Assembly: GCA_046563655.1 (NCBI GenBank)
Contig: CM102288.1
Location: forward strand, 2,914,001 to 2,978,000
Direction of reading: 5' to 3'
Source of the DNA: Yuukianura sp. NJ FZ-2021
Lineage: Eukaryota
Length of the DNA stretch: 64,000 bases
Part shown: positions 37,501-64,000 of the stretch, in pieces
Layout: each line of letters begins with the position of its first letter
Position numbering within the stretch: position 1 is the first letter of the stretch
Made by a program: the position numbers and the translations under genes
Notes under the pieces: generated by a model
What the model was told of the DNA's origin: nothing
The model's database searches: none
What the model saw: only the letters and a program-made list of their open reading frames with translations

Positions 37501-40500
37501 TCGGTCAAATTCCAACGGAAAAAGTCTCTGTAGTGGGCGAACCAAAATCCCATTCTTCGTCCGCAATTTGGCCACCCGATGAACCCCATCTTTTCCACTG
37601 ATCAATTCTTCAATTATCCCCATTGGCCAAAGGATCCGCTTAACGTCCTCTCTGCCAATCAGGACGCAGTCACCAACGACAAATTCTCTGGTTTTCTGTT
37701 TTCCTCGTTGCACAAGAAGTCCCAAGTACTCCTTACGAAAACGTTGTCGTAACTCCTCCAACATTTTGTCCAGCCTCTTGCTCTTCCTGTTGAAATCAGA
37801 ACCGGTTACAATTTGAGATTCTGGAACCTCACTTACCGGAAGATTGTGAATAAACATGGCTGGTGTTAGGGGGATCAAATCTTGTACATCTTCCGTTACG
37901 AAAGTCAGCGGCCTGTGGTTGATGGTGTCCTCTACTTCACACAAGCAGGTCTCGAGCTCAACTTTGTTCAACTTCCGGAACCCGAGCATCCTCTTGAGTA
38001 GGTCCTTGAGCGACCGAATAAGTCGCTCCCACCATCCACCCCACCAAGGTGCTGCCGGTGGATTGAAGATCCACTGAATTTGCTGTTCCTTTGTCCTTTG
38101 CTCCACCTCCGCCCAGTCAATTTGCTTGAAGAGATTAACGGCACCATGAAAATTAGTACCGTTGTCACTGTAGACTGTACTAGGCCGGGTCTTCCTTTTG
38201 CAAAAACGGATGAAGGCAAGAACAAAATCATTTGTCGACAAACTGTCCACCAGTTCCAAGTGAACTGCACGATACACAGCGCATGTGAAGATGACGATCC
38301 AGACCTTACTCTTGGCCTTCAGAAGTAACGGACCGGCCAAATCCACTCCTGTAACACTAAATGCGCATGTGTCCTTGACTCGATTTTCTGGTAGAGGTGC
38401 AGACGGTACATCAAAGTTCTTGGAAGTGAAACGTTGACACTTAACACACTTCTTTAGCACTTTCTTCACAGTTTGTCGCCCTTTCAAAATCCAGAATTTT
38501 TCGCGAAGAGAACACAAAACGAACTGCACTCCAGCATGACAGTTGATCTTGTGCCAGTCCATAATCAATTGTTCTGTGAGTGGATGAGAGCTCGGCACGA
38601 GGATCGGGCAACGAAAATCTTCTGTGTCTTGTCGATTTAAAATCTTCGTCCGTACTCGTACTAACCCCAGTTCATCCCGCTCAACTTTGATTCCGTCAAT
38701 CAGTCTGACATCACTTGAGAACGATTCTGATTGAACAAGTTTCCATATTTCTTGCTCGGACCTCTGAGTCTCCCAGGCTGACGGTACTCGACTATTTTCA
38801 GAACTTCTTTTCCACAACTTGTCGACGAACCTGAGAGCATAGGCGAAAACACGTAAATTTCCGAAATAGGAATTTTTAGGAGTATACCACACTGGTACTG
38901 AAGAGTTGACTGCCAGTGTAACGGTCGATCTTCTCTTCTCCCGTCCAACTTCATCTTCATCAGCATGTGGTTCTGCACTTGGCCATTCACTTTCTTTCAA
39001 TTTCAGCCACGACGGCCCTTCCCACCAGAATTTCATCTCCTTGAACTTCTTCGGAGTGACTCCTCTGGATGGTAGATCTGCCGGGTTCAGTAGGCCTGGA
39101 ACGTGATGCCAAGTCGAAACTTCAGTTAGGCTTACAATTTCTCTTACGCGATTTCCCACAAATGTCCCCCACTCGTCACTACGCCTAATCCATTGTAGCG
39201 CTGTAGTCGAGTCTGTCCAGTAGCGGATGGGAATCTTCTCCATGTCCAACGCCCCCTTCACAGAATTGGCAAGACGAGCAGCAATGGCGCATGAGAGTAG
39301 TTCCAAACGAGGAATAGTCGTCTTCTTCAATGGAGCAACTCGGGACTTTGCTTGAATTAGGCTAACTTCCACCCCGTTGGTCGTTTCCACCCGAAGATAC
39401 ACGACAGCCGCGTAAGCGTGTTGACTTGCGTCAGAAAAGACATGGAGCTGAAATTCTCCTTTGTCGTCGGCTGATCCAGTGCACTTCCTCGGGAGTCTGA
39501 ATGTTTCGAGAACTGGCAACAATTCTTCCCACCATGCGCAAAATTCTGTTTTTGCCTCTTCATTCACCTCGTCCTCCCACTTTCGATTTTCAATCCATGA
39601 CCTTTGTAGTAGGAGCTTCGGCAAAATCATGACAGGTGCCAAGAATCCCAGTGGATCAAAGACCTGTTGAATTCTAGAAAGAACAATTCTTTTAGTAACT
39701 TGCAATAAACATTCGTCTTTCAACGGAGCACAAAACAAAGTGTCTGCTCTCTTGTCCCACTTTAGGCCAAGAACACTTGCCACTCCACTGTCACCCGTAG
39801 ATTCCCATTGGGTCAAGTCCATCTTTGCTGTTGCCAAAAGTTTCGTGGCTTCTGCTCTGAACTTTTTGTAGCATTCGACTGAGTCCAAAGACACAACACA
39901 ATTATCGACATAGAGAGACTTCTGTAATTCCCTCACAATGTCCAAATGCTGTGACTCCTGTTGAGACAAATGAAAATTAATCACAGCACTTAGCAAAAAT
40001 GGAGAACTGTTCACTCCAAATACGACACGATTGTGGCGAAAAACAGTCATTTTTTCATTTCCTGGATCTTCCCACCATAGGAAACGGAGAGAATCTCGAT
40101 CTTGCTCCTGTACTTCAATTTGAAGGAAGGCCTTACGAATGTCGGAGATAACACCAACGTTCTTCATCCGGAATCGTAGAAGGATCGCCGGAATGACTTC
40201 TAACAAGTTGGGTCCCTTTTCCAAACACTCGTTCAGTGACGGGGCCCTTCCAACCTTACAGGAAGCATCGAAGACGGGTCGTATTGGTGTGGTGCTACTT
40301 TCCAATTTTAACACCGCACGATGAGGCAAGTAATGAATCTTCCCCTTCCCACCGTCTTCAACATCACGAATTTGAGAGATGATTCCGTCTTTCTCCCACA
40401 TTTTGAAAATCGCATCATAATCGTCCAGCTTGCCAAGCGACTTCAATTTCCTGGTGGTAGTCTCTAGTCTCTTCTCTGCCACCAGCCTGTTTGTCGGAAT

Positions 40501-43500
40501 CTTCAGTTCCCTGTCAATCCACGGGAGACAAATTGAGTAACGGCCGCTGTCATCACGTCGTACAGTTTCTATGAAGTGGTCGTATGTCAACTTATCCCGT
40601 TCTTCTTTCGTCTGAACTTCAACTGGATCACGAATTCCCAATGTATCCAAGTTCCAAAGTTCAGTCACTGATGCACTGGAAACTCCCATTGACAAAACAG
40701 TCATCACAGTCGCCTGATTACAAAAAGAAAAATCATTGTGAGACTGCCCCATTAAACACCAACCAAACTGAGTCTCAATTGCGGTAAGTCCACTCTTCAC
40801 GTTCACTATGTTCCCTGTGAGTAGACTTCCAACCACATCCGCTCCGAGGAGCACTTCAACTTTGGCCGGGTGTGACGAATCCACATCATTGACAGAAATT
40901 CCTCTCTTCTTCAACTCCGCCTTCCAAGACCCCTGTGTTGCTCTAGGCAAAATTCCGCAAATTTGATCTTGGTCGATGACGTTGAACTGCGTAGAGAATG
41001 AACCGTCCATGTTCTTGAGTGTTACGGTAAACGTATCGTGTTTCACATCACGGATAGTTCCACCTCCGAATACTTGATGGTTCATGGTGAGAGACGAGAC
41101 TGGTTCAAACTCCAACTCCTTCGCAGTACCTGACAGAATATAGGAACGTTGGGAACCGTCATCAATAAATACTCTCACCTTCTTCGTTTTCTGATTCACT
41201 GGATTCACCAGTTTCACCATCAAAGTCTTAAGTAGAACCTCGTTCGTGCAGTTCAGATTGGTTTGTGTAGTGGAGGTCGACTCAGTCTTAGGTACTGGCT
41301 TCTTCTTCTCGTCTCCATTACACATCAGTTTGTAGTGACGTTTCCCACATTTAGAGCATCTGACGCTGATCGTACACTTTGCCCGCAAGTGACCGGTACG
41401 AAGACAGGCCCAGCATGCTCCCTTTTCTTTCAACTTGTCCTTTCGTTCCACGTCAGTCATCTTCTGTGCCTTGAAACAGTCTTGACTGGCGTGACCTTTA
41501 TCACAAAAGACACAAGAATTAGAACCACTAAAAAGACCTGCTGCTGTAGGGATGTCATCTTCTTGACTCTGCTCCCTTCCCCGGGTCTGTCGTCTTCCAG
41601 TGTCTGTTTTCTTGGTACAAAGTACCACCCGACTTTCAGCATGCTCCACTTCCTCTTGTAGAAACATCCGCAAAAAGTCAAGCCTTGTCTGTGGAGGGTC
41701 GTCTTCACTACAATCTTTTCCATAATTGACACTGCGTTGCCAGGCGATCACTGTTTCTTCTGGGAGACTGGCTACTACCATGGGGTAAAGAAACACAGTC
41801 ATCTCCCGTACCGTAAGTCCCAGTGATTCCAGATGTTGAATTTTTGTCTCCACCGTATCAAAGTGAGAAGCAAGATCAAATCTGTCCTTATTCTTGTTAG
41901 TCACCATGGAGATCAAGTCCTGCACATACATCAGCGACAGTAGATCAGGATCACCAAACCGTTTCTTCAGTGCATCCACCGCCTTCTTGTAATTTTCTGC
42001 CGTGTGTGGATACCGCAAAATCAGTTTAGCCGCTTTCGATCCTTTCGTCATACACTGGTCAAGGTAGTGGAACTTGTCTGCATCGTTGAGCCTTGTGTCA
42101 CGGTCAATTTTCTCAAACGATGACCACCAGTCAAGCCACTCTGAAAGTTCGCCTGAATACTTCTTTAATTCAGCCTTCGGTAACTTCACATTGTTCATTT
42201 CGCCCGAACTGCCACTGCTTCCACTTCGGCTCGAACCTTGGGCAACGTCAGTAGCAACGGGCACAGTTGGTACTTCCAGTACTGCTTCAACCTGCACTCT
42301 GATCATCGCTACCTTCGTAGTGTACTCCAGGATTGATTCTGTTTCAGTTTCGAAAACCTCATCTGTAGTTGAATCCAAATCCAGAAGTGCCGACTTGTAC
42401 GATTCGTCCAGTTCTTCCAGTTTTTGGACGTGAACGTTCAAAACACGAAGGTTCGATTCGATTTTCAGTTTCGGAAGTGGGTTAACCTTCAAGTCATTCT
42501 CCAAAGTCCCGATCATCCTCGTCACGATACCCCGTTCGGCCCCTCTGAGTTTCTTCAGTTTGTCCATTTCCTTGGTCATCTTTAAGGTAAATAAATACCA
42601 CCTGTTACTAATCAGTCAGCAATCGACAAATGGAACGATTCTCACCAATTTCAGTCCTCGTCCGGTGAGGACAGACCTCGACGTATACAGTTGGTCGAGT
42701 CTTCAATGTAATGGATGAGCCTGTGATGTCCAAGTGTCCGTCAGTTTCAATCGATTCCGTGAATACCCGCTTCTGGTCCGGCCAGGGTCACCAATTTGTT
42801 AAATCCTTAATCTCTCCCCGAGAAGAAGTGATTTTCGTTCGTTGGACCGAAGCAGTCACGAGAATTGATTTTGAAACATTTATTTTACTTATTCTGAAAA
42901 TTTAACCAATTGACCAAATTCCTTTTTCTTTTCTTAATATCCACAATCCTACTAAAAATCTTAACACACAAAATTCCAATTCAAAGACACGCCAGGAAAA
43001 AACGCCATTTCAAATCGAGCGCCTCTTTCTCAAAAATAACAAAACAAATCTGGCGCTGGTTTTTAACTTAAAATCAATAATTAAAATTAACCTTAATTTC
43101 TAACAACAATATTTTTCAAAATCAAAATTTTTTGAAAAATTACCTTTGATGACTTTTGTTGTAGGAAGAGAGCAGTTCCATCTTCTTGATCTGAATTGAA
43201 ACTGACACTCACTGAGAGCTTTGGATGCTCCGCTTTTAATACTCGACATGAATTCTGGATGTGTTTTACAGAATTTGAGTTGACCTTTGATTAATTGACC
43301 GGTCAAATTTTCACACGTAGGAACAGTACTGTCTTCTATTGATGACGCAGATGACGAAGGGTTCGAAATTGCACTAAAATCACAAAAAAAAAAAGTGAAA
43401 TCACTTTGCGGCAAAACGAAAGAAGCTTTTTTTTGTAAAAAATAGCAAAAAAAAAAAGTTTGCCAATAAAAGTAAGCTCGTTCCAGTTTCGGATTTTTGG

Positions 43501-48379: not shown

Positions 48380-51300
48380 ATGTCTTCAGTGAAAGTGGCT
48401 GTTAGGGTTCGCCCATTCAACTCTAGGGAAATCAACCATGACGCACAATGCATCATTGAGATGGAAGATAATTCTACTTGTAAGAGTTTTAAAAAACTGA
48501 CTTTTTCAGAATTTTTGATTTTTTTTCAAAATTTTAAAGTACATTTTGAATGTAGACATAACAAATCCAAAAGGAACTCCTGGTTCGAAAGAAAACACAA
48601 AAAGTTTCAACTTTGACTTTTCCTACTGGTCCCATGACGTAAGTGAAAGTTGGGCATGACGTAATTTTCTTAGTTGAATTTCACTACGTTTCTAATTACA
48701 ATTTTAGTTAATTAATCATGAACTTCAACTGATTTTTACACAATCAAATCTCCTTTGCCCACTCGTGTTTAAACTAACTGTAAGCGTCTCATGTATTTTA
48801 ACATTTTCCGGTTCAAAGTTTCAGCAAATGACGTCAAAGTCTGCAAAAATAAAATTTTCAGAGTTTATTTTTTCAGGGAAAGTAAAATTCTAGAAAAAAA
48901 ACATTTTTTTTTGGGAAACCTTTTCTTCTTTCTAGAAAATGAAAGTTAGAATGCTTTCTTCTAAAGAAAAATTAAACTTAACGTTATGCGTATTTTTTCG
49001 CGAAATGGAAACTGAGAGCGTCAAATGGGTCGAGAGGTGTTTTAACCAAGGTTCTGGTTCTAGATCAACATTTCCAAAATTTTAGATTGATTTTCGAATT
49101 GAATTGATTTTGGAAAATTTATTTTTAGTCAAACTCTCCGCACTTTGCGAGTCAAACTCAAGTTTACAGAGACATCGGAGAGGAAATGCTGGAACATGCC
49201 TTTGAAGGTAAACTTTCCCACGCGTTTCGAGGTCATTGACATTTCAAAACTTTCTCCATTCTTCTAAAATCTGTTATTCTTTACAACTCAAGGTTACAAC
49301 GTCTGTATTTTCGCATATGGCCAAACTGGTAATACACAGAAAACATTTTTAACTTTACCTTGCAAAAATTTTGAAATTCTTCTTTTAAAAAAAGAATTTT
49401 TCTTTTCGAAAATTTAGGTGCTGGAAAAAGTTACACGATGATGGGAAAAACGGAAGATGAAGGAATCATTCCTCAAATCTGTGAAGATCTGTTCAAACGA
49501 ATCTATGCTGACAAGGACCATGGACTCAACTTTTCTGTTGAGGTAACATTTGACCTCTTGACCTCATTTTGAAACTCTTGGCTTCTTGACCCTGGTTATG
49601 TTTCTAGGTCTCCTACATGGAAATTTACTGTGAACGAGTTCGTGACCTGTTGAACCCTCAGAGTAAAAATGCCAATCTCAAGGTTCGTGAGCACCCTCTG
49701 CTGGGCCCTTATGTTGAAGACTTGTCCAAGTTGGCAGTGACCAGCTACGAGGACATTCTGGAGTTGATGGACGAAGGAAACAAGGCTCGGACCGTAGCAG
49801 CCACCAACATGAACGAAACTTCGTCGCGATCTCATGCCGTCTTCACGATAATTTTTACTCAACAGAGACTCGACTCTCTAACGAATTTAGTTGCAGAGAA
49901 AGTTAGCAAAATCTCGCTAGTGGATTTGGCAGGGTCGGAGAGAGCAGATTCTACAGGGGCCAAGGGTGTGAGACTCAAGGAAGGAGCTAATATTAACAAA
50001 AGCTTGACCACTCTGGGCAAGGTCATCAGTGCTTTGGCAGAAGCTGTAAGTTCATTGACCTTTGCATGTTAACCTTTGACCTCTTGACATTGACATTTGA
50101 CCTGTTAATTTCAGTCGACGAAGAAAAAGAAGAAGGGAGACTTCATTCCGTACAGAGATTCGGTTCTGACGTGGCTTCTGCGTGAAAGTCTTGGCGGAAA
50201 TTCAAAAACGGCCATGATAGCCGCCATTTCTCCTGCGGACATCAATTATGAAGAAACGCTTTCAACTTTGAGGTTTCCGAAATTTTTAACTTCAAAATTT
50301 AAAATTCTTTGTTTCAGATTTTGAAAATTTTGAATTTTTGAACAGATATGCCGATAGAGCCAAACAGATCGTCTGCAAGGCTGTGGTGAATGAAGACGCG
50401 AATGCCAAATTGATTCGAGAACTCAAAGAGGAAATCATGCGGCTCAAAGAGCTTCTCAAACACGAAGGAATCGACAATTTTGAAAACGAAAACCGCGGCG
50501 GTTCAGGGGGCAGTCTCGTAGCCGGTTCCGAACCGCGCTCAAATTCAACTTCCAGTATTGCCGAAGAAGCTGTTGATCAACTACAGGCTAACGAGAAGCT
50601 CATTGCCGGTATGGAAAAAACTGCCCAATCAGCTTTTTTACCGACCATAACCGCAAATCATTTGACGACCATAACCGTACATGATTTTTTTTTGTTTTGT
50701 ATAGAGCTTAATGAAACTTGGGAAGACAAGTTGAAGCGAACCGAGCAGATTCGAATGCAGCGGGAGGCGGTATTTGCAGAAATGGGTGTTGCGGTTAAAG
50801 AAGATGGCGGCACAGTAGGCGTTTTCAGTCCAAAACAAACTCCGCATTTGATTAACCTCAATGAAGATCCACTTATGGCCGAATGCCTTTTGTATTACAC
50901 CAAAGAGGGAGTGACGCGCGTCGGAAATGGAGAAGGTGCTGCCACCGCTCAGGTATCGCACGTCATAAAAATAATGTCCACCAAAATTCTTCCAAGAATT
51001 TCACAAAAATTCAAGATTTTTTCAACTTTCTAGGATATTATTCTCTACGGACCATCGATTCTGCCGGAACACTGCACTTTCGAAAATTGCAACGGTGTCG
51101 TTACACTTACGCCATTCAGCGACGACGCAGTGGTCTACGTCAATGGTCGTCTCATCAAAGAACCTACGCAGCTCCAAACCGGTTTTCGTGTCATTTTGGC
51201 CAAATCTCATGTCTTTCGCTTCACCAATCCCAGTCAACCGCCACAAAAAGTGACGACGACTGCTTCAAGTACTGCGTCGACCACAAGTAGCTCTGACGAG

Positions 51301-54300
51301 GAAGTGGTCAATTCCGATTGGAATTTTGCCCAAATTGAATTACTGGAGAAACAAGGTGTAGATTTAAAACAGGAAATGGAGAAGAGGCTTGTGATTTTGG
51401 AGGAGCAGTACAAAAAAGAAAAATTAGAAGCTGATGTGCTGTTTGAACAACAACGCAAAGTAAGCCTAACCCCGATAACCGAAAAACTTTTTAAAAAAGC
51501 ATTCTATACGTATTGCAAGCAATTTCAAAAATCCCGTAAATTTCAATTCGAAACCGAAATAATTTTTTCCAAACTTTAGTCAAGGTGTAGGATTTGGTAG
51601 AGTTAGGTATTGGCAGGCAATGTGCCGCTTATATGCTTGTTGGTCCAATGACATTTTGAATTTAAACTCCCACATTTGACCTTGGACCTTTCTGCTTTCA
51701 TCTTTGACTTTTTGACCTTTGCAGAACTATGAAGCGAAAATTGAAGCCCTTCAGAAAACAGTAGAAGAACAATCCATGAACTTGTCTATGTACTCATCAA
51801 TGGCCAGTGAAGACTTTCTTGCTGCTGCTCAGGCTCAGCAAGCTCATGCCTCCATGGCCGCGTCCGCCTTGACCTTGACCCACTCCGGAATTGAATTTGG
51901 CGGTCCAGACATGTTTGGTAAGCTTCTGACTTTTGAACTTTGACATTTGAGCTCCTTACCTCGATGCTGATCAAGATTCAGTTGATTCCAGAATCTCATT
52001 GTTCAGATGTCGCTGAAAACTGGAGCGACAGAGTCTATGGCCTGGTGCTGCAAGCTTTCAAAAAATGGCGCTTCCATCGCTTCACGTCCCTACGAGACGA
52101 TCTCTGGGGCAATGCAATATTTCTCAAAGAAGCAAATGCAATTTCAGTCGAGCTCAAGAAAAAAGTAATAGGTTTTCGAAATTTTGAAAATGAGAGTCCA
52201 AAAAAACTGAAATTTTCTCTACAAACTTTTCAGGTTCAGTTTCAGTTTACACTCCTCAGTGACACTTTGTACTCCCCGCTTCCTACGGAATTCGGTGCAA
52301 TTATGATGGAAGACGAAGGTTGTAAGACTATAGTTGGAGTTGAAGTGCAAGATACAAAAAACGGAGCTACACATTATTGGACCCTGGAAAAATTACGGTA
52401 ATTTTGAAATTTTGAAAAAGTTCCAGGATTTCCAGCAAGTTGCGCTGCTGGAATATCGTTGTTCAGTTCGCTGCGTTCTGCTTTGTAAACTACCTCTTCC
52501 TCCAGTCTCATTCGCTCTCTGCTCTTCTTCTTCTGTTTTCTCACCTATTCTGTTCTAAAAATTTACAAAATCTAGAAAACGAAAACTAAAAAACTAACGT
52601 TTCAATTTAATGCTAAATGTAGTCCCCAGTGTGCACTTACAAAACTGTCAACTGTTAACCTTTTTGCTGCTGCTAACTTTTAGAAAGCTAAGGGCACTTA
52701 CATAACATTTGGTAAACATCAAAATTGTCAACAACAATATCGTCAAAAAATTTAATTTTTTACGAAAAACTCTGTGCTTTTTTTAGAAAAAACTTTGCAA
52801 AACCCGTTATGTAACTTGGTACTGTTTCTGCAAACTTGGTTTATGGTGAAAAGTAGAATTTCAAAATTAAATAAATTTCGAAACGGCTTGATTTCGACGC
52901 AAAATTTCTTTCGTGTGTCAAATCATGCTGATGAATTTGTTGTTGACATATTTACACTGTTTACCAAATTGGTTTTGACATCTCGGTTGATAGAAAGGAA
53001 ACCTTAAAAAAATTTACTTTAGTTTTTACTTCCATTTTGTCTGTAGACATCGAGTGGAGTTGATGCGTGAGCGGATGAGCAGTGAGGAATTCTGGGGTAT
53101 TTTTGATGGTGAGGACCACGAATTGGCGGATAGGTTAGTTGACCTTGACCTTGACCTCTTCAAAAGGTCAATGACCTTGACCTTTTGACATACAACTTTG
53201 ACTGTTGATCTTTCTGCTCTTCTACAGGCACAGGCTGGAACAAATGCGAGAGATGTACAGCAATGAAGACTCCGTTCCGTCTCCCGAATCGTCGTCGCCC
53301 AACGGCGACCCATTTTATGACCGGTAAGTCCGGCAAACCGGTATTCTCAATTTTAGTACCGGTTTGACCCTTGACCTTGATTTTTGCGTAGGTTCCCCTG
53401 GTTTCGACTTATAGGACGTGCCTATGTGTACCTCAGCAACCTATTTTATCCGGTTCCACTTCAACACCGCGTTCCAATTGTAAATGACCACGGAGATGTC
53501 AAGGGGTACTTGCAAGTCTCGGTAGAGGCTCTAACAGTTGAAGAGGCCGCTGAAAGCCAAAATACTGGCAAGGTGCCTGGAAGGGTCAATTTCAGCGATG
53601 CGATTGACTTGGTCCGAAGTATTCCGAACGTTGACGAAAACTGTATCGTTGAAGATGCTGCCGGACTTCTACCACCACATCTACAACTGACTAAAGAATT
53701 TACTTTTAAAGTGACCGTCGGAAGGTGTTTCGGAGTCGAATCGGACTATGCCGATGTCTTTTGTCAGTTTCGCTTTTTACATCAAAACGACGAAACATTT
53801 TCGACCGAACCGATCAAAAATATCGTTGGAGATACTTTGGCGTTTTCTTTTGTTCAGACGGTAAGCACAGAAAAATGATTTTCCGACGACACAAAACTAG
53901 CGGCAGTGTTTTGTCGGTAAAACCGGAAGTTCATGAAACGTTTTTTTTTTCGGTTTTTACAGATAGCTACATCCGTATCGAAGAGTTTCATTGACTACAT
54001 CAAATCGGAACCAATCATGCTCGAAGTATTTGGTCACTACCAACAGCACCCTCTGCACAAAGACGCAAAACAAGAAACTTCCACTGGACTTTCATCCAGA
54101 CATGCACCGCCGCGGAGACTTCAAATTCCCCCGGGCATTCCCATTTCAGCTCCAGTTCGCTCGTCTCGCTTTGCCCCACTTCCGCTCTTAATTTCTCCAT
54201 CAACTTCCCATGTCGCCAAGAAAATTGAGCTACTTGTTTGGTTTGAAATTTGTGAACTGGCGCCCTCTGGGGAATACGTTCCTTGCACTGTTACTCATGG

Positions 54301-56441
54301 AGATCATCTGCCATGTCGTGGAGTTTTTGTACTGCACCAAGGACTTCAACGCAGAATCAGAATTACTATTGTACATGACTCAGATGAAGAGGTTCGGTGG
54401 AAGGATGTTCGGGAAGTACTCGTCGGAAGGATTCGGACAACTCCGGAATCGGATGACGAAGATGAAAATGTGCTGTCGTTGGGCTTGTTTCCTGGAGAAT
54501 ACTTGGAGTGTCTCGGAGAAGACAAAAGTTTGTTCCGATTTGAAGCTGCGTGGGACTCCAGTTTGCATAATTCACAGCTTCTGAACCGTGTAACCCCGTC
54601 GGCTGAAAACGTTTACCTCACAGTTTCCGCATATGTTGATGTAAGTTAAAAAAAATGGACATTTTGAAACATTTTCTTTGAAATTTTGAACTTTTCTGAA
54701 ATTTCAGTTGGAGAACTGTGGAATGCCGGCAATAGTTACAAAGGACTTGAGTATTTTGATTTACGGAAGATCTGGACCTAGAAGTTTAAAACAATTTTTT
54801 ACGTCTCAGTATTACAAGAATCCTGACGCTAATAGACTCACTGGACTGTATGAACTTGTTCTAAAAAGAGCAAGTGACCTGGGTAGGATTTTTTTTTGAA
54901 AATGTTCAAAATTCTGAACCGTGAATTTTGAAATTTTGTCATATTTCAGGAATTCAGCGCAGGATTCGACGAGTTTTGGACACTTCGAATGCCTATGTCC
55001 GTGGAGAGGAGAATCTGTCAGGGTGGCGCCCTCTGGGTGACTCGCTGCTTTTTGACCACCAATGGGAGCTCGAGAAAATTAGTCGTTTAGAACAAGTGGG
55101 AAAAGTGAGACACGCTCTGCTTCTGCGTGAAGCGCTGGCAGCGACAGCATCGCATGGATTCCCAGCATCACCGAAACCTATTGGTTGGAGCAGCAAGGAA
55201 GAGAAGGTTTTGAAAATCTTCAAAAAAAATGGAATTCATAATAATTCAACAACTTTTTTTCATTTTGTTCTAAATTTTTTTTAGGAATTTGTTAATTTGG
55301 CAGCAAAAGAAGGTCGTGTGATTAAGCGTGACGGCTCACTTTCGAACGGAACTGAAGAACTGAGCGCCCGGGAGAAAGAACTGCTCATGAAATTTGCTAG
55401 GTTGATGCAAGGAAAAAACGTTGGCAAAAATGTAAGTTTTTATAAAAGCACAAAACTGATTTTCGAAAAGGAAATTATTTTTCAAAATTTTGAATTCTAG
55501 GAACCCGATTTGCTGCAGAATCTCAATGAAGAACCGACGCGTTCCATGACACCCTCACCGAGTACAGAGTAAGCACTTTTTGAAATTGCTTTTAACAGTT
55601 TCTGCCACTACTTAAACCAAATGCTTGTGCTCTGCGCATGCCTACTCCACTGACTTTGTTTCAATCCTCCTATTCCTAGTTTTAGTCACCAATTGGAACG
55701 TCCGCGCAGCTTGTTGCTTAGCAACAGTTTGGTGCCCACTTTACCTTCGCCTGGTTGCAGTGGGACCAAGACGCCTTCGCCCTCCAAGGACTTCTTCCTC
55801 TACATTCCAGAAATTGAGGAAATCAGAATCTCACCAATCATCAGTCGACGCGGATACTTGCACGTCTGTGATGATCGCAGAGGCGTTTGGCGCAAGAGAT
55901 GGATCGTAAGACTTCCAAAAATCAAAAACTTTCAAAAAAGTTTCAAAATTTTGATTTTGGTGACCTTGACCTAGGTCGTCCGGCGCCCTCATATATTTTC
56001 ATTCCGAGACGAAAAGGACCCTGTTGAAAGGAACGTCATTAACCTTGCCAATTCTCAGGTCATCTATGACCCCGATGCTGAAGGACCCCTGGCCAATACT
56101 TTTACGTAAGCAGTTGACCTTTGACCTTTGATTTTTGAATGACCTTGACCTTTGATCTCTTGTTTACTTAGGGTTGTGACCCGTGACACGAAAAGACGCT
56201 ATATTCTCCAGCCTCCACTTGACAAAGACGTCCAAGACTGGCTATATGCAATTAACCCTCTACTGGCAGGACAAATTAAGTGAGCCAATTGTGCTTTTAA
56301 AATTTTTGAAAAAAAACACAGTCATTAAATTTTTGTTATTTTGAAAATTGTTAAATTTTCTTTAGATCCAGAATGGCTCTTATCCAGAAGCAAGCAGCAG
56401 CAAACGCAGCAGAACCAGTCCAACCTGCTTTAGAATCTTAA
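48380..56441 (+). CDS. unc-104: Kinesin-3 motor unc-104/KIF1A
   Basis: [61 protein letters not shown] region ([12 protein letters not shown]), [39 protein letters not shown], and a C-terminal PH domain ending [13 protein letters not shown]. Confidence 0.97.
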
Positions 56442-59060: not shown

Positions 59061-60414
59061 ACAACCGAAAGGAGTAGAATTTGGAAAAAAAAATTACTCC
59101 CAGAGGTCATTGACCTTTTCGCAAAAATTTTCGCGCATGCGTGTCAACAGAATTACACATGCGCACGTAGGGTTACCATGGGATTCAAATTCTACGTTTT
59201 CTGGAGAATGAATTTTCCTAATCGTGACTTTTGAAAAACCGGATTTTTTTGACATTTTTGAACTTTTGAATTTGATTAAAAATTTGAAGCATGCAATAAA
59301 AAAAAAAGTTCGCAAAAAAAAGTTTTCAAAATTCGCAAAGAATTAAAAAAGATTTGGTAATTTTTTCGTCGTATTTTTCCTCATCTCTAATGCAAATTGC
59401 GTAACATAAAAAAGCTTCTCTCAGTGTTTCCTTCTTTGCAAACAAAAGAAAAACGGATTGGTGTCATTTTTGGCATTTTGTTGGCCTGAAATCTTCTAAA
59501 TGCATAACAAAATTTCTTATTCTTTACTCAATTGTTTCATAATGTGGTCGTTAATTAGTCATTAACTAAACTTAAATTCTTAATTGACCAAACTCAACTC
59601 CCACTTTATTCTAATTCCTTTATGAAATTCCGATTTTTTTATGAAAACAAAATCTTGTTTGATATCTCTCTTCCTACTAAAGAGTGTTTTGCCCCAAGGG
59701 CCCCCTGGTGCAGATATGGTCCTTTGGAATTCCTGTTGTTGGCCCTTGAGTGTTAAGATTTAGGAGGCCTACAAAGATATGGAAGTGGAAAGATGAATGT
59801 AGAATTCCTACATTCATTGGCTACATTGTTGTAAAATGAAGATTGTTGTTCAGAAGAGGCCTTCAGTCGTCTCGAAGGGAGCAGAGGAGGAAGATGTAAC
59901 AAGGTAAGAAGACTCTTCTTCATCTTCCAAATTATTGAGATCACGTTAACAAAGTTAGACTAAACAAAAGTTAGGTTTGAAAAACCTATGGTTAGGGAGT
60001 ACCTCGAGGCCAAAAGTTAGGCGGAGGCTTGTGGGGCCAACTTAAAGTCTGAAAGTGGTCTTCTGGGTCAGCCTTTCAGTTGGCCAAACCCTGTTTTCCT
60101 CTCTTCCTAGAAAAAAATAACAATTGAAACAATTAATTGCTTTTTTGTTTTTGATAGAGATGAAGAGAAATCAAAGGACACTTACGGGAATTGCTTGATT
60201 TTGGGCCCATTTCCATTCTCCACCACGTAATTTTCTGGGCCCAAGCAATTTCATTGGTTGTTTGTTATGAATTAATGTAAACATTAACTGCAATCCCTGA
60301 GCAACGTTTTCAAAAAAAAATTAAAAAAAAAAAGAATGAAAACAAAGTGACGCGATCCAGAAAAAAAAAAACAAAACAACACCAACAAACTTCAGTCTTC
60401 AATCAGGCCTGATT

Positions 60415-60505
60415 CACCTGGCCTAGTGGTGCAAATCACTAGAACTGAGCCCCCCCTGACTTGTCAGGGTATTTTCGCCCTGGGTTCAATTCCTGGGGGG
60501 GCTCG
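60415..60505 (+). other. tRNA-like / Pol III-promoter-like structured sequence (SINE head or tRNA pseudogene)
   Basis: A-box-like TGGCCTAGTGG (60419-60429), B-box GGTTCAATTCC (60483-60493), stems GAGCCCCCC/GGGGGGCTC and CCCTGAC-TT-GTCAGGG. No canonical cloverleaf. Confidence 0.45.
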
Positions 60506-61152
60506 ACTGCAGATTGGGATTTGGGTGATTTTTTTTTTTGCTTTTATGAATTACAAAAATGTTTTATTAAAATCTATAAGGAAAAAGGGTAATTAATTTA
60601 ATTAGAAAAGGTTGTATTAAAAATTGGAGATTTTTTATCCGATATTACGATGGCAAATACGTCGGCAGATTTTTTCGCGCTCCGCTCAACTAAAAATCAA
60701 AAGGAATAGGACTAATTTTGGAATTTTCCACGTCGCGAGACCCGAATTTTAACGATTTTCGATATTTTTGTGTACAAACAAATCACAGATGAAATAGAGA
60801 ATTGGATACCTACGATTATTGCCGTTTTTTATGTTTGTTATTAATAATTTTTGTACATTATATTTAATATTTTAATGTTACGTTCGTTATATGCTAAAAT
60901 CATTTAATTTATGAATTGAAATATCGAATTATTTATTCATTTATTGAAATTATTGAAATGAATGTTTAACGATTTTGTATTTAGAAGTTTTCTGAAACTA
61001 TGTCTTAAGTTAGTCAACTTTAAAATTGATTACGTATGTTCAACTTTATTATGCTTTTTTGGTTTACTGGTTTATTTTTTAAATATAATTGTGTTTTGAA
61101 TTCTATTTGAAGTATTTTTGTGAAAACAAGGACCGTTGTGGGACAAAATATG

Positions 61153-64000
61153 TTAGTCGGTGTCCGAATCTTCATCAGTTTGGGCCAACTCTTCAGCAGC
61201 ATCAAGAATGCAGTAACCCAAAGGACGGGTTTTGGGGACGGCCTGACTGTTGTATCTGGCGAACGCTAAGTACCAGATTAACGACGTGACATGACTACAG
61301 CATCCAACAGTCCTACTTCCAGTCTTGCACGAACAGTACCAAGCTATAATGGAGTCCGCGTCCTTTCCATGTGGCAGGAACCTCACAAATACGCTGTGGC
61401 ATTTTTTCTTGCAGAATCTTGATTCGATTTTAGCACAAATGAGTGTAGGGTCTTCCAAGTGGATCAGGATTGAATACGACCCATTGCTTCTCATGTGCTC
61501 TGCAACGTAGCGGACAGCCTGATCTAACTGATAACTTCCAAGGGTCAGAGTCTTCAATTCCTTCGCCGGAAGAACGGGAAATTGGGAGACATCTTTCTCA
61601 GAGGCTTTCTTCCAGATCACTCGTTTTGTTGCGAGCTTCTTTTCCTCCACATCCTTCTCTAGTTGATTTTGATTGGTCATTCTTGCCAGCGCCATTTCAA
61701 CGAGTCTCGTATGGTCATCAGATGCGGAGAACACAGGAGGAGAAAATGCGTTGATTAAGGCACATTCTATTCTGACAAAACTGCGAATTTTGGGCAGGAG
61801 TGAGTTTTTGATGACTGCATTGAGGAGTTGACATTTGTTTTTGATTTTTCCATGGACGGCCTCGACCACCCAGCGTAACATGGTAACTTGACGCGATTTG
61901 TTGCCTTCGTCCGCGGAAAACTTCTTTCTGGTTTTTGGGAGAAAAGCAGGCATGTAAGTCCAGATTTGATGATCCTCCAGGTCATCTGCGACATCTCGAA
62001 ACCCTCTGTCCAAAACAGCAACGTCGCCAATCTCGAAAAGGTTTAGTATTTCTCCAGTCTTCATCATCGCTTGCAGGATTGAAGAATCGTTATTCCCGTT
62101 ATCTGCTCCAAAGGGTCCTTCGCATTCAAGAATGTAGCCAGTACTTGTCACAACAGTCATAAACTTGACCAAATGACGTAGCTTTTGCAGGGAGTAGAGC
62201 AGCCTTTGGTCCTTATGATCTGCAGGACGTTGTATGTAAAAGTAAGTGCCGTCCAAAATCACAATCAAAACGTCATCGTCTTGCTGGAGAAGACTTTGGA
62301 ATGACTTTATGGTGTGCTGAGAAATGATTTCCTCCCTCGATTTGTGGTGATACCCAAGGAATTTCGGAACGAAGTTCTCTTCCAATGCTTTCGCTGCTGC
62401 CGTGATGGTGTCGCTAACGATGGAGTTATTTAGAATTCCGAACATAAATCCGAGCAATTTCAAGCTCAAATTCAGCCTCATCTTCATCAGCAACATGGCG
62501 ATTCCGTTTCGTTTTGTACGATTTTTGCTGGCCTTGAATCCATGTGCGTAAGACATGAGCTGGTCAAAGTTTTCCCTCGAAATTCCAAGCAACAGTTTGT
62601 AGTCATCCGTAGACAACTCCGACGATATCTCGAAGTCTACTCGGAGCTTCTTCAATGAAATTGAGCTGGTCAAAGAATGAATCCATTTAGAAAGAGCCTC
62701 AGGAGTAGTTTTGAAGTAATTCTTCATTGGCTTGATTAGTTGTAGAGCTTCTTCGTTCAGTCTGGAGTACTGTAGATGATCACCACAACATCTATTAGTC
62801 GCAGGGATTACAATTCTGTTCTTCTTCCAAGCGTCTTGAATGGCAGTCACTGGTACCCTCCTCCGCCCTTTTCGGTCGCCACATATGAAACAGCAGCGCT
62901 GAGTTGAACGGCATGTCAAGACGGAAGGAAGACGGACAACACCAGAAAATGAGACATTGGCTGAGACGCTACATACGGAATTCCCCACCGACATTTGTGA
63001 CAACTGAGAGTTCAACTCCAAGGAAAAATCCGATGCTTGTGATTGGTCCATTTCAGAAGAGGAAGCGTCATAAGGTTTCTCAGTATGGAAACGGGGGCTT
63101 CGAACGACACTGTTGAAGTGGTTCCCTGTTGAAACATTTCAGAAACAAAAAATCAAAACGGACTTCAAAGAAAAAAAACCAAGAAGCGTAAAGGCCATAA
63201 AAGTACGCTTACCGTTATGGTAGGATAAACGCACTTCGGTGTTGTCGTCAATCAGGTCATCTTCAAAAGCGATCTTCAAAGGCTCTACATTCAACTGATG
63301 AACGACAACAGCAAGTTTTTTCCACCGACTGAACGCCACAATCGCATCATTGCCACCCCAAGTTCCCCACGTAGACATTTTCTCCACTACAAATAGTAAG
63401 ACGTATTTGATCATCAGTATATTATAACTGCAACAGATTTTCATTGTTTCAATTCTAACCGTATTTGTCGAACGGAACTGAAGCATCCTCCAAGAAAGGT
63501 TCGAAGTCGTCTCGGTGTTCACCAATGAACTCTGCGACAGCTTTACGATATGCGATATGGTTTTCTTCTGTTCCGTCAAGTTGATGGGAGAACGCTCGGA
63601 AAAGACAGTTCCCATCGCCGATTATTTTGTGGACGGTTAGTCCGAGAGGAGCCAATTGTTGATTGAGAAGTTCTACCGAGTCCCGGGTAGGAAGCGATGG
63701 TACTTGAGCAAGGTCATCAGGGTTCAAAGGCAAGTCAGAGGGATGTTCCAGAGGAGTCCGTGGTACTTGAGCAGAGTCGTCAACGTTCAATGGCTGGCCA
63801 GAGGGAATTTCCAGAGGAGTCCGTGGTACTTGAGCAGAGTCGTCAACGTTCATTGGCTGGCCAGAGGGAATTTCCAGAGGAGTCCGTGGTACTTGAGCAG
63901 AGTCGTCAACGTTCATTGGCTGGCCAGAGGGAATTTCCAGAGGAGTCCGTGGTACTTGAGCAGAGTCGTCAACGTTCATTGGCTGGCCAGAGGGAATTTC
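61153..64000 (-). CDS. Spliced OTU deubiquitinase-DDE transposase fusion (PIF/Harbinger/ISL2EU-like, C-terminal SWIM); exons >64000-63460, 63386-63213, 63125-61153; 5' end outside window
   Basis: OTU: IIGDGNCLFRAFSHQL...DDFEPFLED...PFDKY|VEKMSTWGTWGGNDAIVAF...HQLN...LSYHN|GNHFNSVV. It continues in frame into ORF 63051: CFIC...CCGDHL Zn finger, HTH, DDE motifs ILDGTY / VLDRGF / RWVVEAVHG, SWIM WYCSCKTGSRTVGCCSH. Confidence 0.85.
63690..64000 (-). repeat. 63-bp coding tandem repeat (21-aa unit MNVDDSAQVPRTPLEIPSGQP), runs off the window edge
   Basis: Units start at 63979, 63916, 63853 and 63790, followed by a diverged copy. Confidence 0.95.

What the first reader, a model, noticed from the sequence alone, without database searches (positions are those of the whole stretch)
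61153..64000. DNA transposase fused, by splicing, to an intact OTUD3-like deubiquitinase domain
Seen: three ORF-track entries are one gene. Intron 63459-63387 (G|GTTAG...TAG|TG) and intron 63212-63126 (G|GTAAG...CAG|GG) are both phase 1. The last exon reads GNHFNSVVRSPRFHTEKPYDASSSE straight into the Met at 63051 of the 632-aa transposase, with no stop. The OTU catalytic elements are complete (GDGNC Cys loop; H-F-N-S His/Asn). The segments DDFEPFLED, GNDAIVAF and HQLN closely resemble OTUD3. The transposase keeps a THAP-like CxxC...CxxH finger, an HTH, an IS5/Harbinger-type DDE triad and a SWIM finger. Known: OTU domains are carried by Ginger1 and some Helitrons, and by viruses that counter ubiquitin-based defence. 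I do not know of this architecture in PIF/Harbinger/ISL2EU elements. Inference: a transposon that captured a host deubiquitinase, possibly to stabilise its transposase or remove repressive chromatin ubiquitin, or else a domesticated fusion gene.
Basis: partly seen in the sequence, partly recalled or inferred. Interest (0 to 1): 0.88.

Follow-up and report, generated by a model that had tools for sequence, protein, structure and literature searches.

The report
Spy-type transposase fused to OTUD3-like deubiquitinase
A cut-and-paste DNA transposon in an invertebrate genome has extended its transposase gene with intron-containing exons that encode an intact host-type (OTUD3-like) deubiquitinase domain, which adds another transposon group to those that carry ubiquitin-family proteases.

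Summary
On the minus strand, three pieces (64000-63460, 63386-63213, 63125-61153) join through two GT..AG phase-1 introns into one open frame of 895 codons, open at the window edge. The join rebuilds a complete OTU domain. That domain aligns without gaps across both junctions to an OTUD3-like protein (E 7e-41) and runs straight into a 632-aa DDE transposase.

The transposase has an invariant C2CH finger, an HTH, a DDE_Tnp_4 core with D(80)D(48)E spacing, and a C-terminal CxCx9CxH finger. The spacing, the size and one candidate end (host AAA, then GGA...) fit the Spy group of the PHIS superfamily better than PIF/Harbinger or ISL2EU. The second end lies outside the window.

Contigs from the source sample hold 10-13% diverged copies of both the OTU part and the transposase part. 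They also hold a deletion derivative that joins the two. This favours a multi-copy element over a domesticated gene.

None of 174 transposase relatives and none of 38 related metagenome loci has an OTU. One separate clade carries a C-terminal Ulp1 protease instead, as in Ginger1.

Splicing, expression and deubiquitinase activity are untested. I rate it a new variant of a known kind, of moderate interest.

The parts
63698..64000 (-). Tandem 63-bp repeat, in frame with exon 1. It encodes at least 4.8 copies of a 21-residue unit upstream of the OTU domain and runs off the window.
   Evidence: TRF gives period 63, 4.8 copies, 95% matches. The frame is open. Two plus-strand frames are also open through it, so openness here is weak evidence of coding.
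63460..64000 (-). Exon 1, partial, with no start codon fixed. It holds the N-terminal half of the OTU domain, including the catalytic Cys loop GDGNC.
   Evidence: Pfam OTU E 7.6e-8, 33.4 bits. The best solved relative is OTUD3 (4bou), E 6.6e-18.
63387..63459 (-). Intron 1: 73 nt, GT..AG, phase 1.
   Evidence: GC 0.27 against 0.45-0.48 in the exons. Read-through stops at the first intron codon.
63213..63386 (-). Exon 2, the middle of the OTU domain.
   Evidence: It aligns to P0027 with no gap at either junction. On its own it matches no Pfam family.
63126..63212 (-). Intron 2: 87 nt, GT..AG, phase 1.
   Evidence: GC 0.33. Retention gives a stop after 26 codons.
61153..63125 (-). Exon 3. It holds the OTU His motif (HFNS), a 16-residue linker, then the 632-aa transposase from the Met at 63051. 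The stop is at 61155-61153.
   Evidence: ORF listing and join. AlphaFold2 model of the 632 aa: pLDDT 92.0, pTM 0.83.
63097..63682 (-). OTU (OTUD3-like) deubiquitinase domain, spread over three exons.
   Evidence: phmmer E 7e-41 to P0027 and P0028. 49.6% identity over 141 aa.
62776..62892 (-). C2CH zinc finger (Cys54, Cys57, Cys89, His92, counted from the Met at 63051).
   Evidence: Invariant in 75 of 75 aligned sequences and in 72 of 72. Model pLDDT 95.4. Fold matches are not significant: THAP 3kde_C E 1.4; ZAD domains Z 2.0-2.4.
62374..62502 (-). Helix-turn-helix (HTH_Tnp_4).
   Evidence: Pfam E 7.2e-6, 26.0 bits against a cut-off of 27. The same family is matched in many relatives.
61750..62256 (-). 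DDE catalytic core (DDE_Tnp_4). The triad is D267, D348, E397, counted from the Met.
   Evidence: Pfam E 5.1e-15 over the whole profile, 1-158 of 158. Residues checked. Spacing D(80)D(48)E. Best Foldseek match is the Tn5 transposase 1muh_A, E 7.5e-4, prob 0.99.
61291..61335 (-). C-terminal CxCx9CxH finger of SWIM type (C573, C575, C585, H587).
   Evidence: Invariant in 16 of 16 sequences and nearly invariant in 75. Pfam SWIM is weak in 4 of 26 relatives, one of them above the cut-off. It did not match the window's own protein at E <= 1.
60176..61152 (-). 3' non-coding part of the element, GC 0.31. Segments 60574-60657 and 60720-61060 are absent from another copy.
   Evidence: The joints 60573>60658 and 60719>61061 occur in one contig of each of X1, X2, X4 and X5. 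GC.
60173..60197 (-). Candidate element end. On the plus strand, host AAA (60173-60175) is followed by a terminus that starts GGACACTT.
   Evidence: Left-flank contigs stop matching at 60175 and run on unlike the window. Other contigs begin at 60174-60179 behind differing flanks, with agreement 0.53-0.67. Sequence read. The 22-mer occurs once in the window. Only one end is visible, so this is not established.

Best explanation
This is the 3' 3.8 kb of a cut-and-paste DNA transposon of the PHIS superfamily, most like the Spy group. Its transposase gene has been extended at the 5' end by exons captured from a host OTUD3-type deubiquitinase gene.

Shown from sequence:
- Two short phase-1 introns split an intact OTU domain with its Cys loop and His motif.
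- The last OTU residues lie in the same exon and frame as the transposase, 16 codons before its ancestral Met.
- An OTU-complete product must therefore be an OTU-transposase fusion.
- The transposase has every conserved element of its family: a C2CH finger, an HTH, the DDE triad and a SWIM-type finger.

Inferred:
- The element is, or recently was, mobile, and has several copies.
- The retained introns suggest that the OTU was captured as genomic DNA.

Inferred mechanism (about 35% likely in this form): the fused deubiquitinase acts where the transposase acts. It would remove ubiquitin either from the transposase itself, protecting it from the proteasome, or from chromatin and repair factors at the excision and integration sites. 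OTUD3 is reported to prefer K6 and K11 chains (PMC9741609, passage read). This would raise the transposition yield or lower the damage to the host.

A separate clade of the same transposase family fused a C-terminal Ulp1 (SUMO-type) protease. That points to a recurrent advantage of ubiquitin-family proteases for these elements, as in Ginger1.
For: Fusion ORF:
- 895 codons without a stop after removal of two GT..AG introns.
- Introns have GC 0.27 and 0.33 against 0.45-0.48 in the exons, and retaining either gives a stop.

OTU identity:
- Pfam OTU E 7.6e-8 on exon 1 alone.
- The best solved relative is OTUD3 (4bou), E 6.6e-18, against OTUD1 at 3.3e-6 and OTUD5 at about 2e-3.
- The joined domain matches P0027/P0028 with E 7e-41 and no gap at either junction, at 49.6% identity over 141 aa.

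Transposase:
- DDE_Tnp_4 E 5.1e-15 and HTH_Tnp_4 E 7.2e-6.
- 3586 relatives at E <= 0.001 in the representative library.
- Invariant C2CH, DDE and CxC..CxH residues.
- AlphaFold2 pLDDT 92.0. The best fold matches are Tn5, ISCth4 and piggyBac transposases and retroviral integrases.

Spy-like features:
- D(80)D(48)E lies within the published Spy range D(79-80)D(44-62)E (PMC4122938, passages read).
- Across the family, 66 of 73 aligned rows have a D..D spacing of 77-83 and 43 of 73 have a D..E spacing of 48.
- The transposase is about 630 aa with an HTH.
- The named relatives are from springtails, ants, wasps and rotifers.
- The candidate end reads host AAA, then GGA....

Multi-copy evidence (one sample, which may be the window's source):
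- Contigs 10-13% unlike the window cover 63227-63679 (the OTU part; X1 and X2) and 62577-63033 (the transposase part; X2 and X4).
- One X1 contig joins 61686 to 63227, a 1540-nt internal deletion. This puts OTU and transposase sequence in one diverged copy.
- Exact-match element contigs have 2-5 times the word depth of exact-match flank contigs: X1 121-166 against 23-43; X2 160-176 against 50-77; X4 156-204 against 57-66. The tool warns that depth is no copy number, so this is only a weak hint.
- A second organism's run (X5) holds a 14%-diverged contig over 61061-61921 at depth 454, and a 274-nt piece with 3 differences.

Recurrent protease capture:
- 5 of 43 extended relatives scanned with Pfam carry Peptidase_C48.
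- 7 of 176 stored proteins share that C-terminal region.
- They form one clade apart from the window's clade.
Against: - There is no RNA evidence, so splicing and expression are inferred only.
- The start codon, the 5' end and the second TIR lie beyond 64000, and no genome is held. TIRs, target site and true copy number could not be established.
- The candidate terminus matches only 3 of the 4 specified positions of the Spy GGANNNNG motif and rests on contig break points.
- All copy evidence within organism A comes from one sample that may be the window's source.
- The nearest relative, P0001 (52% identity), starts at the equivalent Met with no OTU in its predicted protein.
- No OTU was found in 174 relatives or 38 related loci. 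The fusion may therefore be confined to one lineage, and no second, independent example shows that it is kept by selection.
- The transposase could also be made without the OTU from its own Met at 63051.
- The published Spy description says most Spy transposases lack a zinc finger (PMC4122938). This one has two.
Confidence: 0.7

Rival explanations
1. It is a domesticated host gene. A former transposase, fused to an OTUD3 paralogue, is now immobile and kept for a host function such as DNA-damage or chromatin ubiquitin signalling.
For: The ORF is long and intact, with host-like short introns and all catalytic residues. No pair of TIRs was seen in the window. The gene lies among ordinary animal genes.
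Against: The same sample's contigs hold 10-13% diverged copies of both parts and an internal-deletion derivative. Exact-match element contigs have higher word depth than the flanks (weak). A repeat boundary with differing flanks lies at 60174-60179. A second organism carries a related piece at high depth. The DDE triad and the DNA-binding fingers are all retained.
Confidence: 0.12
2. It is a chance juxtaposition. A transposon landed in or beside a host OTUD3-like gene, and the apparent fusion is a local chimera that is not part of the mobile unit.
For: None of 174 transposase relatives and none of 38 related loci carries an OTU. The closest relative, P0001, begins at the equivalent Met.
Against: The OTU His motif lies in the transposase exon only 16 codons before the Met and in frame. 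That leaves no room for a TIR and a 5' untranslated region. Diverged copies include the OTU part, and one contig links OTU exon 2 to the transposase 3' part. The region upstream of the OTU is a tandem repeat unlike the N-terminus of P0027.
Confidence: 0.08
3. The element is real, but the working transposase is made without the OTU, from the Met at 63051. The OTU exons are then a passenger, made as a minor isoform or not at all.
For: The Met at 63051 aligns with the start of P0001. Relatives work, or are predicted, without any OTU.
Against: The OTU frame is intact over three exons with all catalytic motifs, and it is 49.6% identical to a host-type OTUD3. Without exon 3 the OTU domain lacks its His, so any OTU product must be the fusion.
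Confidence: 0.1

Closest known systems
Spy transposons (PHIS superfamily; e.g. Spy-1..7_BMo and cgSpy; PMC4122938 and PMC11304231, passages read)
   Same: An invertebrate host, one long transposase gene of about 630-700 aa, an N-terminal HTH, and D(79-80)D(44-62)E spacing (here D(80)D(48)E). The candidate end has host AAA followed by GGA.
   Different: The Spy, ISL2EU and PHIS papers read here do not mention OTU, ubiquitin or protease (0 occurrences). Most Spy transposases are said to lack zinc fingers. This one has a C2CH finger and a SWIM-type finger plus spliced OTU exons. The second end and the absence of a target-site duplication (TSD) were not seen. No tree with reference Spy sequences was made.
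Ginger1 DNA transposons (PMC2836005, passages read)
   Same: A cut-and-paste transposase fused to either an OTU or a Ulp1 protease domain, never both, in invertebrates, with some introns. The family studied here shows the same either/or pattern (OTU here, Ulp1 in another clade).
   Different: The Ginger1 transposase is a Gypsy-integrase relative and its protease is C-terminal. Here the transposase is IS5/PHIS-type and the OTU is N-terminal and clearly of the OTUD3 subfamily.
Helitron/Helentron OTU and VTD deubiquitinase domains (PMC9741609 and PMC2836005, passages read)
   Same: A deubiquitinase domain carried inside a transposon protein. The proposed role is to protect transposition proteins from ubiquitin-dependent degradation.
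   Different: Those are rolling-circle elements with a Rep/helicase protein, not a DDE transposase. PMC9741609 states that transposon OTU activity has not been tested.
Trichomonas vaginalis PF01609 transposase fused to a C19 ubiquitin hydrolase (XP_001314237.1, as cited in PMC2836005; the original paper is not held)
   Same: An IS5-like DDE transposase joined to a deubiquitinase.
   Different: It has a USP/C19 fold rather than OTU, comes from a protist, and is known to me only from one sentence in PMC2836005.
Host OTUD3 (human structure 4bou; P0027 and P0028)
   Same: The catalytic core is 49.6% identical to P0027 over 141 aa, with the same Cys loop and His motif.
   Different: The C-terminal tail of P0027 after the OTU domain is replaced by a transposase. 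The basic N-terminus of P0027 is replaced by a 21-residue tandem repeat.

Membership tests
OTU cysteine protease (PF02338), OTUD3 subfamily | Profile match above the curated cut-off | tested here: met
   Exon 1 alone scores 33.4 bits against a cut-off of 23.3, E 7.6e-8. The joined sequence was not handed to Pfam.
OTU cysteine protease (PF02338), OTUD3 subfamily | Catalytic Cys loop and His motif both present in one reading frame | tested here: met
   GDGNC lies in exon 1 and HFNS in exon 3, and both align to the same motifs of P0027.
OTU cysteine protease (PF02338), OTUD3 subfamily | Closer to OTUD3 than to other OTU subfamilies | tested here: met
   Among solved structures: OTUD3 (4bou) 6.6e-18, OTUD1 3.3e-6, OTUD5 about 2e-3. 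No OTU phylogeny was made because only two close homologues were retrieved.
OTU cysteine protease (PF02338), OTUD3 subfamily | Deubiquitinase activity | not testable with these tools
   This needs an enzyme assay.
PHIS superfamily (IS5-related eukaryotic DDE transposases) | DDE_Tnp_4-type catalytic core with a conserved DDE triad | tested here: met
   Pfam E 5.1e-15 over the full profile. The triad is D267, D348, E397. The model has an RNase-H-like transposase fold, best match Tn5 E 7.5e-4.
Spy group | D(79-80)D(44-62)E spacing (PMC4122938) | tested here: met
   D(80)D(48)E. The family modes are 79 and 48.
Spy group | N-terminal HTH | tested here: met
   HTH_Tnp_4 E 7.2e-6, 26.0 bits, just under the 27-bit cut-off. 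The model is helical in that region.
Spy group | Insertion between AAA and TTT without a target-site duplication | tested here: inconclusive
   Only one candidate end lies in the window, with host AAA at 60173-60175. The other end is beyond 64000.
Spy group | TIRs ending in GGANNNNG | tested here: inconclusive
   The candidate terminus reads GGACACTT, which matches 3 of the 4 specified positions. No second TIR is available.
Spy group | Single ORF, with no Myb/SANT or YqaJ second gene | tested here: inconclusive
   No ORF of 150 aa or more lies between 54650 and 61152. None of the 19 large window ORFs scanned is Myb/SANT or YqaJ. The upstream part of the element is unseen.
Spy group | Placement inside the Spy clade in a tree with reference Spy, ISL2EU and PIF transposases | not tested
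ISL2EU group | N-terminal THAP domain | tested here: inconclusive
   A C2CH finger is invariant. However, Pfam THAP gave no match at E <= 1. Foldseek's top row is THAP 3kde_C at E 1.4, TM 0.35/0.39. VIA-align's best rows are ZAD domains at Z 2.0-2.4.
ISL2EU group | 2-bp AT target-site duplication (target A|AT|T) | tested here: not met
   The two bases before the candidate terminus are AA, not AT. This rests on one candidate end only.
ISL2EU group | Second ORF with a YqaJ exonuclease domain | tested here: inconclusive
   None was seen in the window. The upstream part is unseen.
PIF/Harbinger group | 3-bp TWA target-site duplication and a Myb/SANT second ORF | tested here: not met
   The flank is AAA, not TWA (one candidate end). 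No Myb/SANT ORF is in the window.
SWIM zinc finger (PF04434) | CxCxnCxH motif, with a profile match | tested here: inconclusive
   The motif is present and invariant in 16 of 16 sequences. The profile did not match the window's protein at E <= 1. It matched at the same place in 4 of 26 relatives, once above the cut-off (P0070, 20.1 against 19.6 bits).
Ginger1 | Gypsy-integrase-like transposase (YPYY, H2C2, GPY/F) | tested here: not met
   Pfam finds DDE_Tnp_4 and DDE_Tnp_1 and no integrase families. The likeness to Ginger1 lies in the protease fusion only.

The most novel reading that the evidence does not exclude
This is an active Spy-type transposon whose transposase is made as an obligate fusion with a working OTUD3-derived deubiquitinase. 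The deubiquitinase is needed for efficient transposition, by removing K6/K11 ubiquitin at the break or from the transposase. Together with the Ulp1-bearing sister clade, this would mean that PHIS elements, like Ginger1 and Helitrons, repeatedly recruit ubiquitin-family proteases. Host ubiquitin/SUMO marking would then be a general restriction on DNA transposition that mobile elements counter. This would be directly testable in the existing Spy cell-based transposition assay.
Probability: 0.25. Interest if true: 0.75.

Novelty: new variant of a known kind. Interest (0 to 1): 0.5.

Why it matters
Protease domains of the ubiquitin family (OTU, Ulp1, USP, VTD) turn up again and again in unrelated transposons: Ginger1, Helitrons, Mutator-like elements and one protist IS5-like gene. 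According to PMC9741609 (passage read), the activity of transposon OTU domains has never been tested.

This case differs from those in three useful ways:
- The donor is easy to name. It is host OTUD3, a well-studied enzyme with a solved structure.
- The capture kept the host-like introns.
- The recipient belongs to a transposase group, Spy, for which a working transposition assay in cultured cells exists (PMC11304231).

The question 'what does a deubiquitinase do for a transposon?' could therefore be answered by comparing the fusion with and without an active OTU.

The parallel Ulp1 fusion in a sister clade strengthens the view that these captures are adaptive rather than accidental.

Tried and rejected
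- Whole genome: none is held for this window. I could not extend past 64000, count copies or find empty sites.
- RNA evidence: no RNA holder is listed among the sequencing runs. This says nothing about expression.
- Organism B's run (X5) had no contigs laid over 63209-64000 and almost none over 62141-62674. A part without cover is not evidence of absence.
- Protein searches from the OTU side:
  - The 'longer' search gave only 2 proteins out of 31 candidates, both plain OTUD3-like.
  - The 'near' search gave nothing at E <= 0.001. The tandem repeat may have crowded the words.
  - The protein atlas returned only OTU clusters or unnamed clusters, none listing a transposase family.
- Metagenome scans: the single protein found no relative. 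A 7-sequence alignment gave 38 loci. tblastn with the joined OTU, the N-terminal part and the Ulp1 region found nothing in any of the 38. Many of these loci are short.
- Ends of related elements, 11 loci examined. L007 is bounded by a perfect 55-nt inverted repeat at the contig ends. L036 has 45-nt arms that are 82% complementary. The L036 flanks gave no clear target-site duplication. I drew no conclusion on the target site from them.
- THAP question: the finger folded alone with high confidence (pLDDT 95.4), but Foldseek (best E 1.4) and VIA-align (best Z 2.4) gave nothing significant.
- The transposase has no sequence relative among solved structures.
- Rfam found nothing above noise over 59500-64000. 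ARAGORN found nothing over 60000-61200. My impression of a tRNA-derived SINE near 60415-60540 is therefore unsupported.
- Earlier findings of this scan: nothing by place, words or sequence.
They list species and families and could show whether this family is already catalogued as Spy.
- Gladyshev & Arkhipova 2009 is not held.
- Literature searches that returned no paper: ISL2EU + OTU and ISL2EU + Ulp1. OTU + transposase + Harbinger returned 6 papers, none describing such a fusion judging by the listing and the passages read. Repbase and Dfam could not be consulted.
- The maximum-likelihood tree with the default method did not finish in 300 s, so a FastTree tree was used.


Full report
**The observation**

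Reading the minus strand of 60800-64000 and listing stop-to-stop frames under the standard code gives three pieces:
- a frame open at the window edge, 64000-63455;
- a frame holding 63386-63213;
- a 661-codon frame, 63138-61153.

Both are phase 1. Joining the exons by coordinates in a script gives 2688 nt, 895 codons plus the stop, with no internal stop.

The introns are 73 and 87 nt with GC 0.27 and 0.33. The exons have GC 0.45-0.48. Retaining either intron stops the frame at once or after 26 codons.

The strongest check is homology. The joined OTU segment aligns to P0027 and P0028, OTUD3-like proteins of 368 and 381 aa, with phmmer E 7e-41. Identity is 49.6% over 141 residues. The alignment passes both junctions without a gap. 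The splice sites are therefore well supported by sequence, but no RNA was available to show them.

**What the parts are**

Pfam on unjoined pieces gives:
- OTU, E 7.6e-8, on exon 1 alone;
- DDE_Tnp_4, E 5.1e-15, covering the whole profile;
- HTH_Tnp_4, E 7.2e-6, 26.0 bits against a cut-off of 27;
- DDE_Tnp_1, E 6.7e-5.

THAP and SWIM were not matched at E <= 1.

Among solved structures, exon 1 is closest to human OTUD3 (4bou, E 6.6e-18). OTUD1 (3.3e-6) and OTUD5 (about 2e-3) are well behind. The Cys loop GDGNC is in exon 1. The His motif HFNS opens exon 3, 16 codons before the Met at 63051 that starts the 632-aa transposase. An OTU domain with its His can therefore only be made as a fusion with the transposase.

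Upstream of the OTU, a 63-bp unit is repeated at least 4.8 times. It is in frame and runs off the window, so the start codon is not fixed.

**The transposase family**

- The representative library holds 3586 relatives at E <= 0.001 and 477 at E <= 1e-30.
- The word-based search gave 26 hits. The best is P0001, at 52% identity. The named hits come from springtails (Orchesella, Folsomia), an ant, two wasps, a rotifer and a protist.
- In a 75-sequence alignment, Cys54, Cys57, Cys89 and His92 are invariant (numbering from the Met). D267, D348, E397 and the C-terminal C573, C575, C585, H587 are invariant or nearly so.
- An AlphaFold2 model built on that alignment has pLDDT 92.0 and pTM 0.83. Its best Foldseek matches are the Tn5 transposase (E 7.5e-4, prob 0.99), then ISCth4 and piggyBac transposases and retroviral integrases. 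This fits an RNase-H-like DDE enzyme.
- The C2CH finger, folded alone, has pLDDT 95.4. It gave no significant fold match: THAP of the P element is the top Foldseek row at E 1.4, and ZAD domains reach Z 2.0-2.4 with VIA-align. 'THAP-like' remains open.

**Which PHIS group**

From passages of PMC4482050 and PMC4122938:
- ISL2EU elements have a THAP-HTH-DDE transposase, a YqaJ second ORF, AT duplications and TIRs that begin with GG.
- PIF/Harbinger elements have TWA duplications and a Myb/SANT second ORF.
- Spy elements have one long ORF with D(79-80)D(44-62)E and an HTH. Their TIRs end in GGANNNNG. They insert between AAA and TTT without a duplication.

The window's enzyme is D(80)D(48)E. Across the family, D..D spacing is 77-83 in 66 of 73 rows (mode 79), and D..E spacing is 48 in 43 of 73 rows.

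Laying contigs of the runs that hold this DNA shows a repeat boundary:
- Left-flank contigs of 1812 and 1651 nt stop matching at 60175 and run on unlike the window.
- Other contigs begin at 60174-60179 behind flanks that disagree with one another.

The sequence there reads host AAA, then GGACACTT.... That gives the Spy-type AAA flank and 3 of the 4 specified TIR positions. It is not the AT or TWA expected for ISL2EU or PIF.

This is one end only, found through contig break points. I call it a candidate and place the element nearest Spy without claiming membership. No tree with reference sequences was possible.

**Transposon or host gene?**

The runs X1, X2 and X4 come from one sample, which may be the window's source.
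- Contigs about 10% unlike the window cover 63227-63679, the OTU exons and intron 1 (X1: 47 differences in 453; X2: 46 in 439).
- Contigs 8-13% unlike the window cover 62577-63033 (X2: 38 in 300; X4: 38 in 457).
- One X1 contig joins 61686 to 63227, skipping 1540 nt with 16 other letters between. This is a typical internal-deletion derivative. It also shows that OTU and transposase sequence travel together in a diverged copy.
- Exact-match contigs of the element have word depths of 121-166 (X1), 160-176 (X2) and 156-204 (X4). Exact or near-exact flank contigs have 23-43, 50-77 and 57-66. The tool warns that depth is no copy number, so I count this only as a weak hint of a few near-identical copies.
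- Another copy lacks 60574-60657 and 60720-61060.
- A run of a second organism (X5) holds a 1267-nt contig, 14% diverged, over 61061-61921 at depth 454. It also holds a 274-nt piece with 3 differences.

Together these favour a multi-copy mobile family over a single domesticated gene.

**How unusual is the fusion?**

- phmmer with the joined OTU hit none of the 174 stored transposase relatives.
- Pfam on the 43 relatives with sizeable N- or C-terminal extensions found no OTU (26, 17).
- tblastn found no OTU in 38 related metagenome loci.
- Five of those 43 relatives carry a C-terminal Peptidase_C48 (Ulp1) domain.
- Seven of the 176 stored proteins share that C-terminal region.
- In a FastTree tree of 105 rows, six of those seven proteins fall in one seven-row clade (SH-like support 92; the inner node has 100); the seventh was not among the tree's rows. 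That clade is separate from the window's clade. The window's protein is sister to P0001 (support 100), inside an 18-row clade (support 100) that includes the springtail proteins.

The same transposase family has therefore acquired two different ubiquitin-family proteases, at opposite ends, in different lineages.

**Comparison with what is known**

- Ginger1 transposases carry either OTU or Ulp1 at the C-terminus (PMC2836005, passages read).
- The same paper notes OTU in Helitrons, Ulp1 in Mutator-like elements, and a Trichomonas protein that joins a PF01609 transposase to a C19 ubiquitin hydrolase.
- PMC9741609 (passages read) describes VTD and OTU domains in Helentrons. It states that transposon OTU activity is untested and that OTUD3 prefers K6 chains and also cleaves K11 linkages.
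- The main texts of the three PHIS/Spy papers contain no occurrence of 'protease'. The two Spy papers contain no occurrence of OTU or ubiquitin.
- Searches for ISL2EU with OTU, or with Ulp1, returned no paper. Broader searches listed nothing that describes an OTU on a PHIS transposase.
- Repbase and Dfam, and the closed supplementary tables, could hold such an entry.

I therefore rate this a new variant of a known kind.

**Mechanism**

Shown: the architecture, and the intact catalytic motifs of both enzymes.

Inferred:
- The product is a single polypeptide that brings a deubiquitinase to wherever the transposase binds.
- It either spares the transposase from ubiquitin-dependent degradation or edits ubiquitin marks at the double-strand breaks that excision creates.
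- I give this role about one chance in three.
- The transposase might also be made alone from its own Met.

**Context**

The window is from an animal genome. It holds HSP90, a nuclear-receptor ligand-binding exon, OPA1, Wnt and a kinesin-3 gene on the plus strand at 49608-54649, upstream of the element. It also holds a BEL/Pao retrotransposon with identical 300-bp LTRs.

Noticed in passing
window 36796-43095: A BEL/Pao LTR retrotransposon with two 300-bp LTRs that are 100% identical, 6000 bp apart. It has an uninterrupted 1759-aa ORF (37336-42615, minus strand) with DUF1759, RVT_1, Peptidase_A17, Integrase_H2C2 and DUF5641. It looks like a very recent insertion.
   Followed up: partly
proteins P0086, P0136, P0137, P0162, P0121 (also P0144, P0079): A clade of the same transposase family carries a C-terminal Ulp1 (Peptidase_C48) protease domain. 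No such fusion is mentioned in the main text of the three PHIS/Spy papers read.
   Followed up: partly
window 60574-60657 and 60720-61060: Two segments of the element's 3' non-coding part are skipped in one contig of each of four runs, including the second organism's. They are either insertions in this copy or deletions in the other.
   Followed up: no
window 63055-63089 and 63679-63713: Other copies differ from the window by 33-nt gaps. One lies in the OTU-transposase linker (one X4 contig, with one extra letter). The other lies just upstream of the OTU domain (one contig each in X1, X2 and X4).
   Followed up: no
window 62757-63030 (run X5, organism B): A 274-nt contig piece from a different organism's run differs from the window at only 3 positions. 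Another contig of that run, over 61061-61921, is 14% diverged at word depth 454. This could reflect related species, a shared active family or horizontal transfer.
   Followed up: no
alignments A1 and A3 (relatives P0029, P0003, P0031, P0008, P0013 and others): Many relatives have an extra N-terminal CxxC...CxxC motif upstream of the invariant C2CH finger. In the window's gene, the OTU domain occupies that upstream position.
   Followed up: no
L007 1-55 and 2927-2981: A 2981-nt metagenome contig that encodes a relative is bounded by a perfect 55-nt inverted repeat at its very ends. This is either long TIRs that cut the assembly or an assembler artefact.
   Followed up: no
window 4731-5018: An inverted repeat with 130-nt arms, 94% complementary, 28 nt apart. 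It is a hairpin-like or MITE-like structure.
   Followed up: no
window 25822-26706 and 37164-37349: Clusters of short direct repeats. The first has units of about 56-63 nt, the second a 31-nt tandem unit just inside the retrotransposon.
   Followed up: no
window 60191-60250: Just inside the candidate terminus, a short inverted repeat (about 15 nt, centred on a GGGCCCA motif) could form a hairpin. Other copies diverge from the window from 60211-60213 onward.
   Followed up: no
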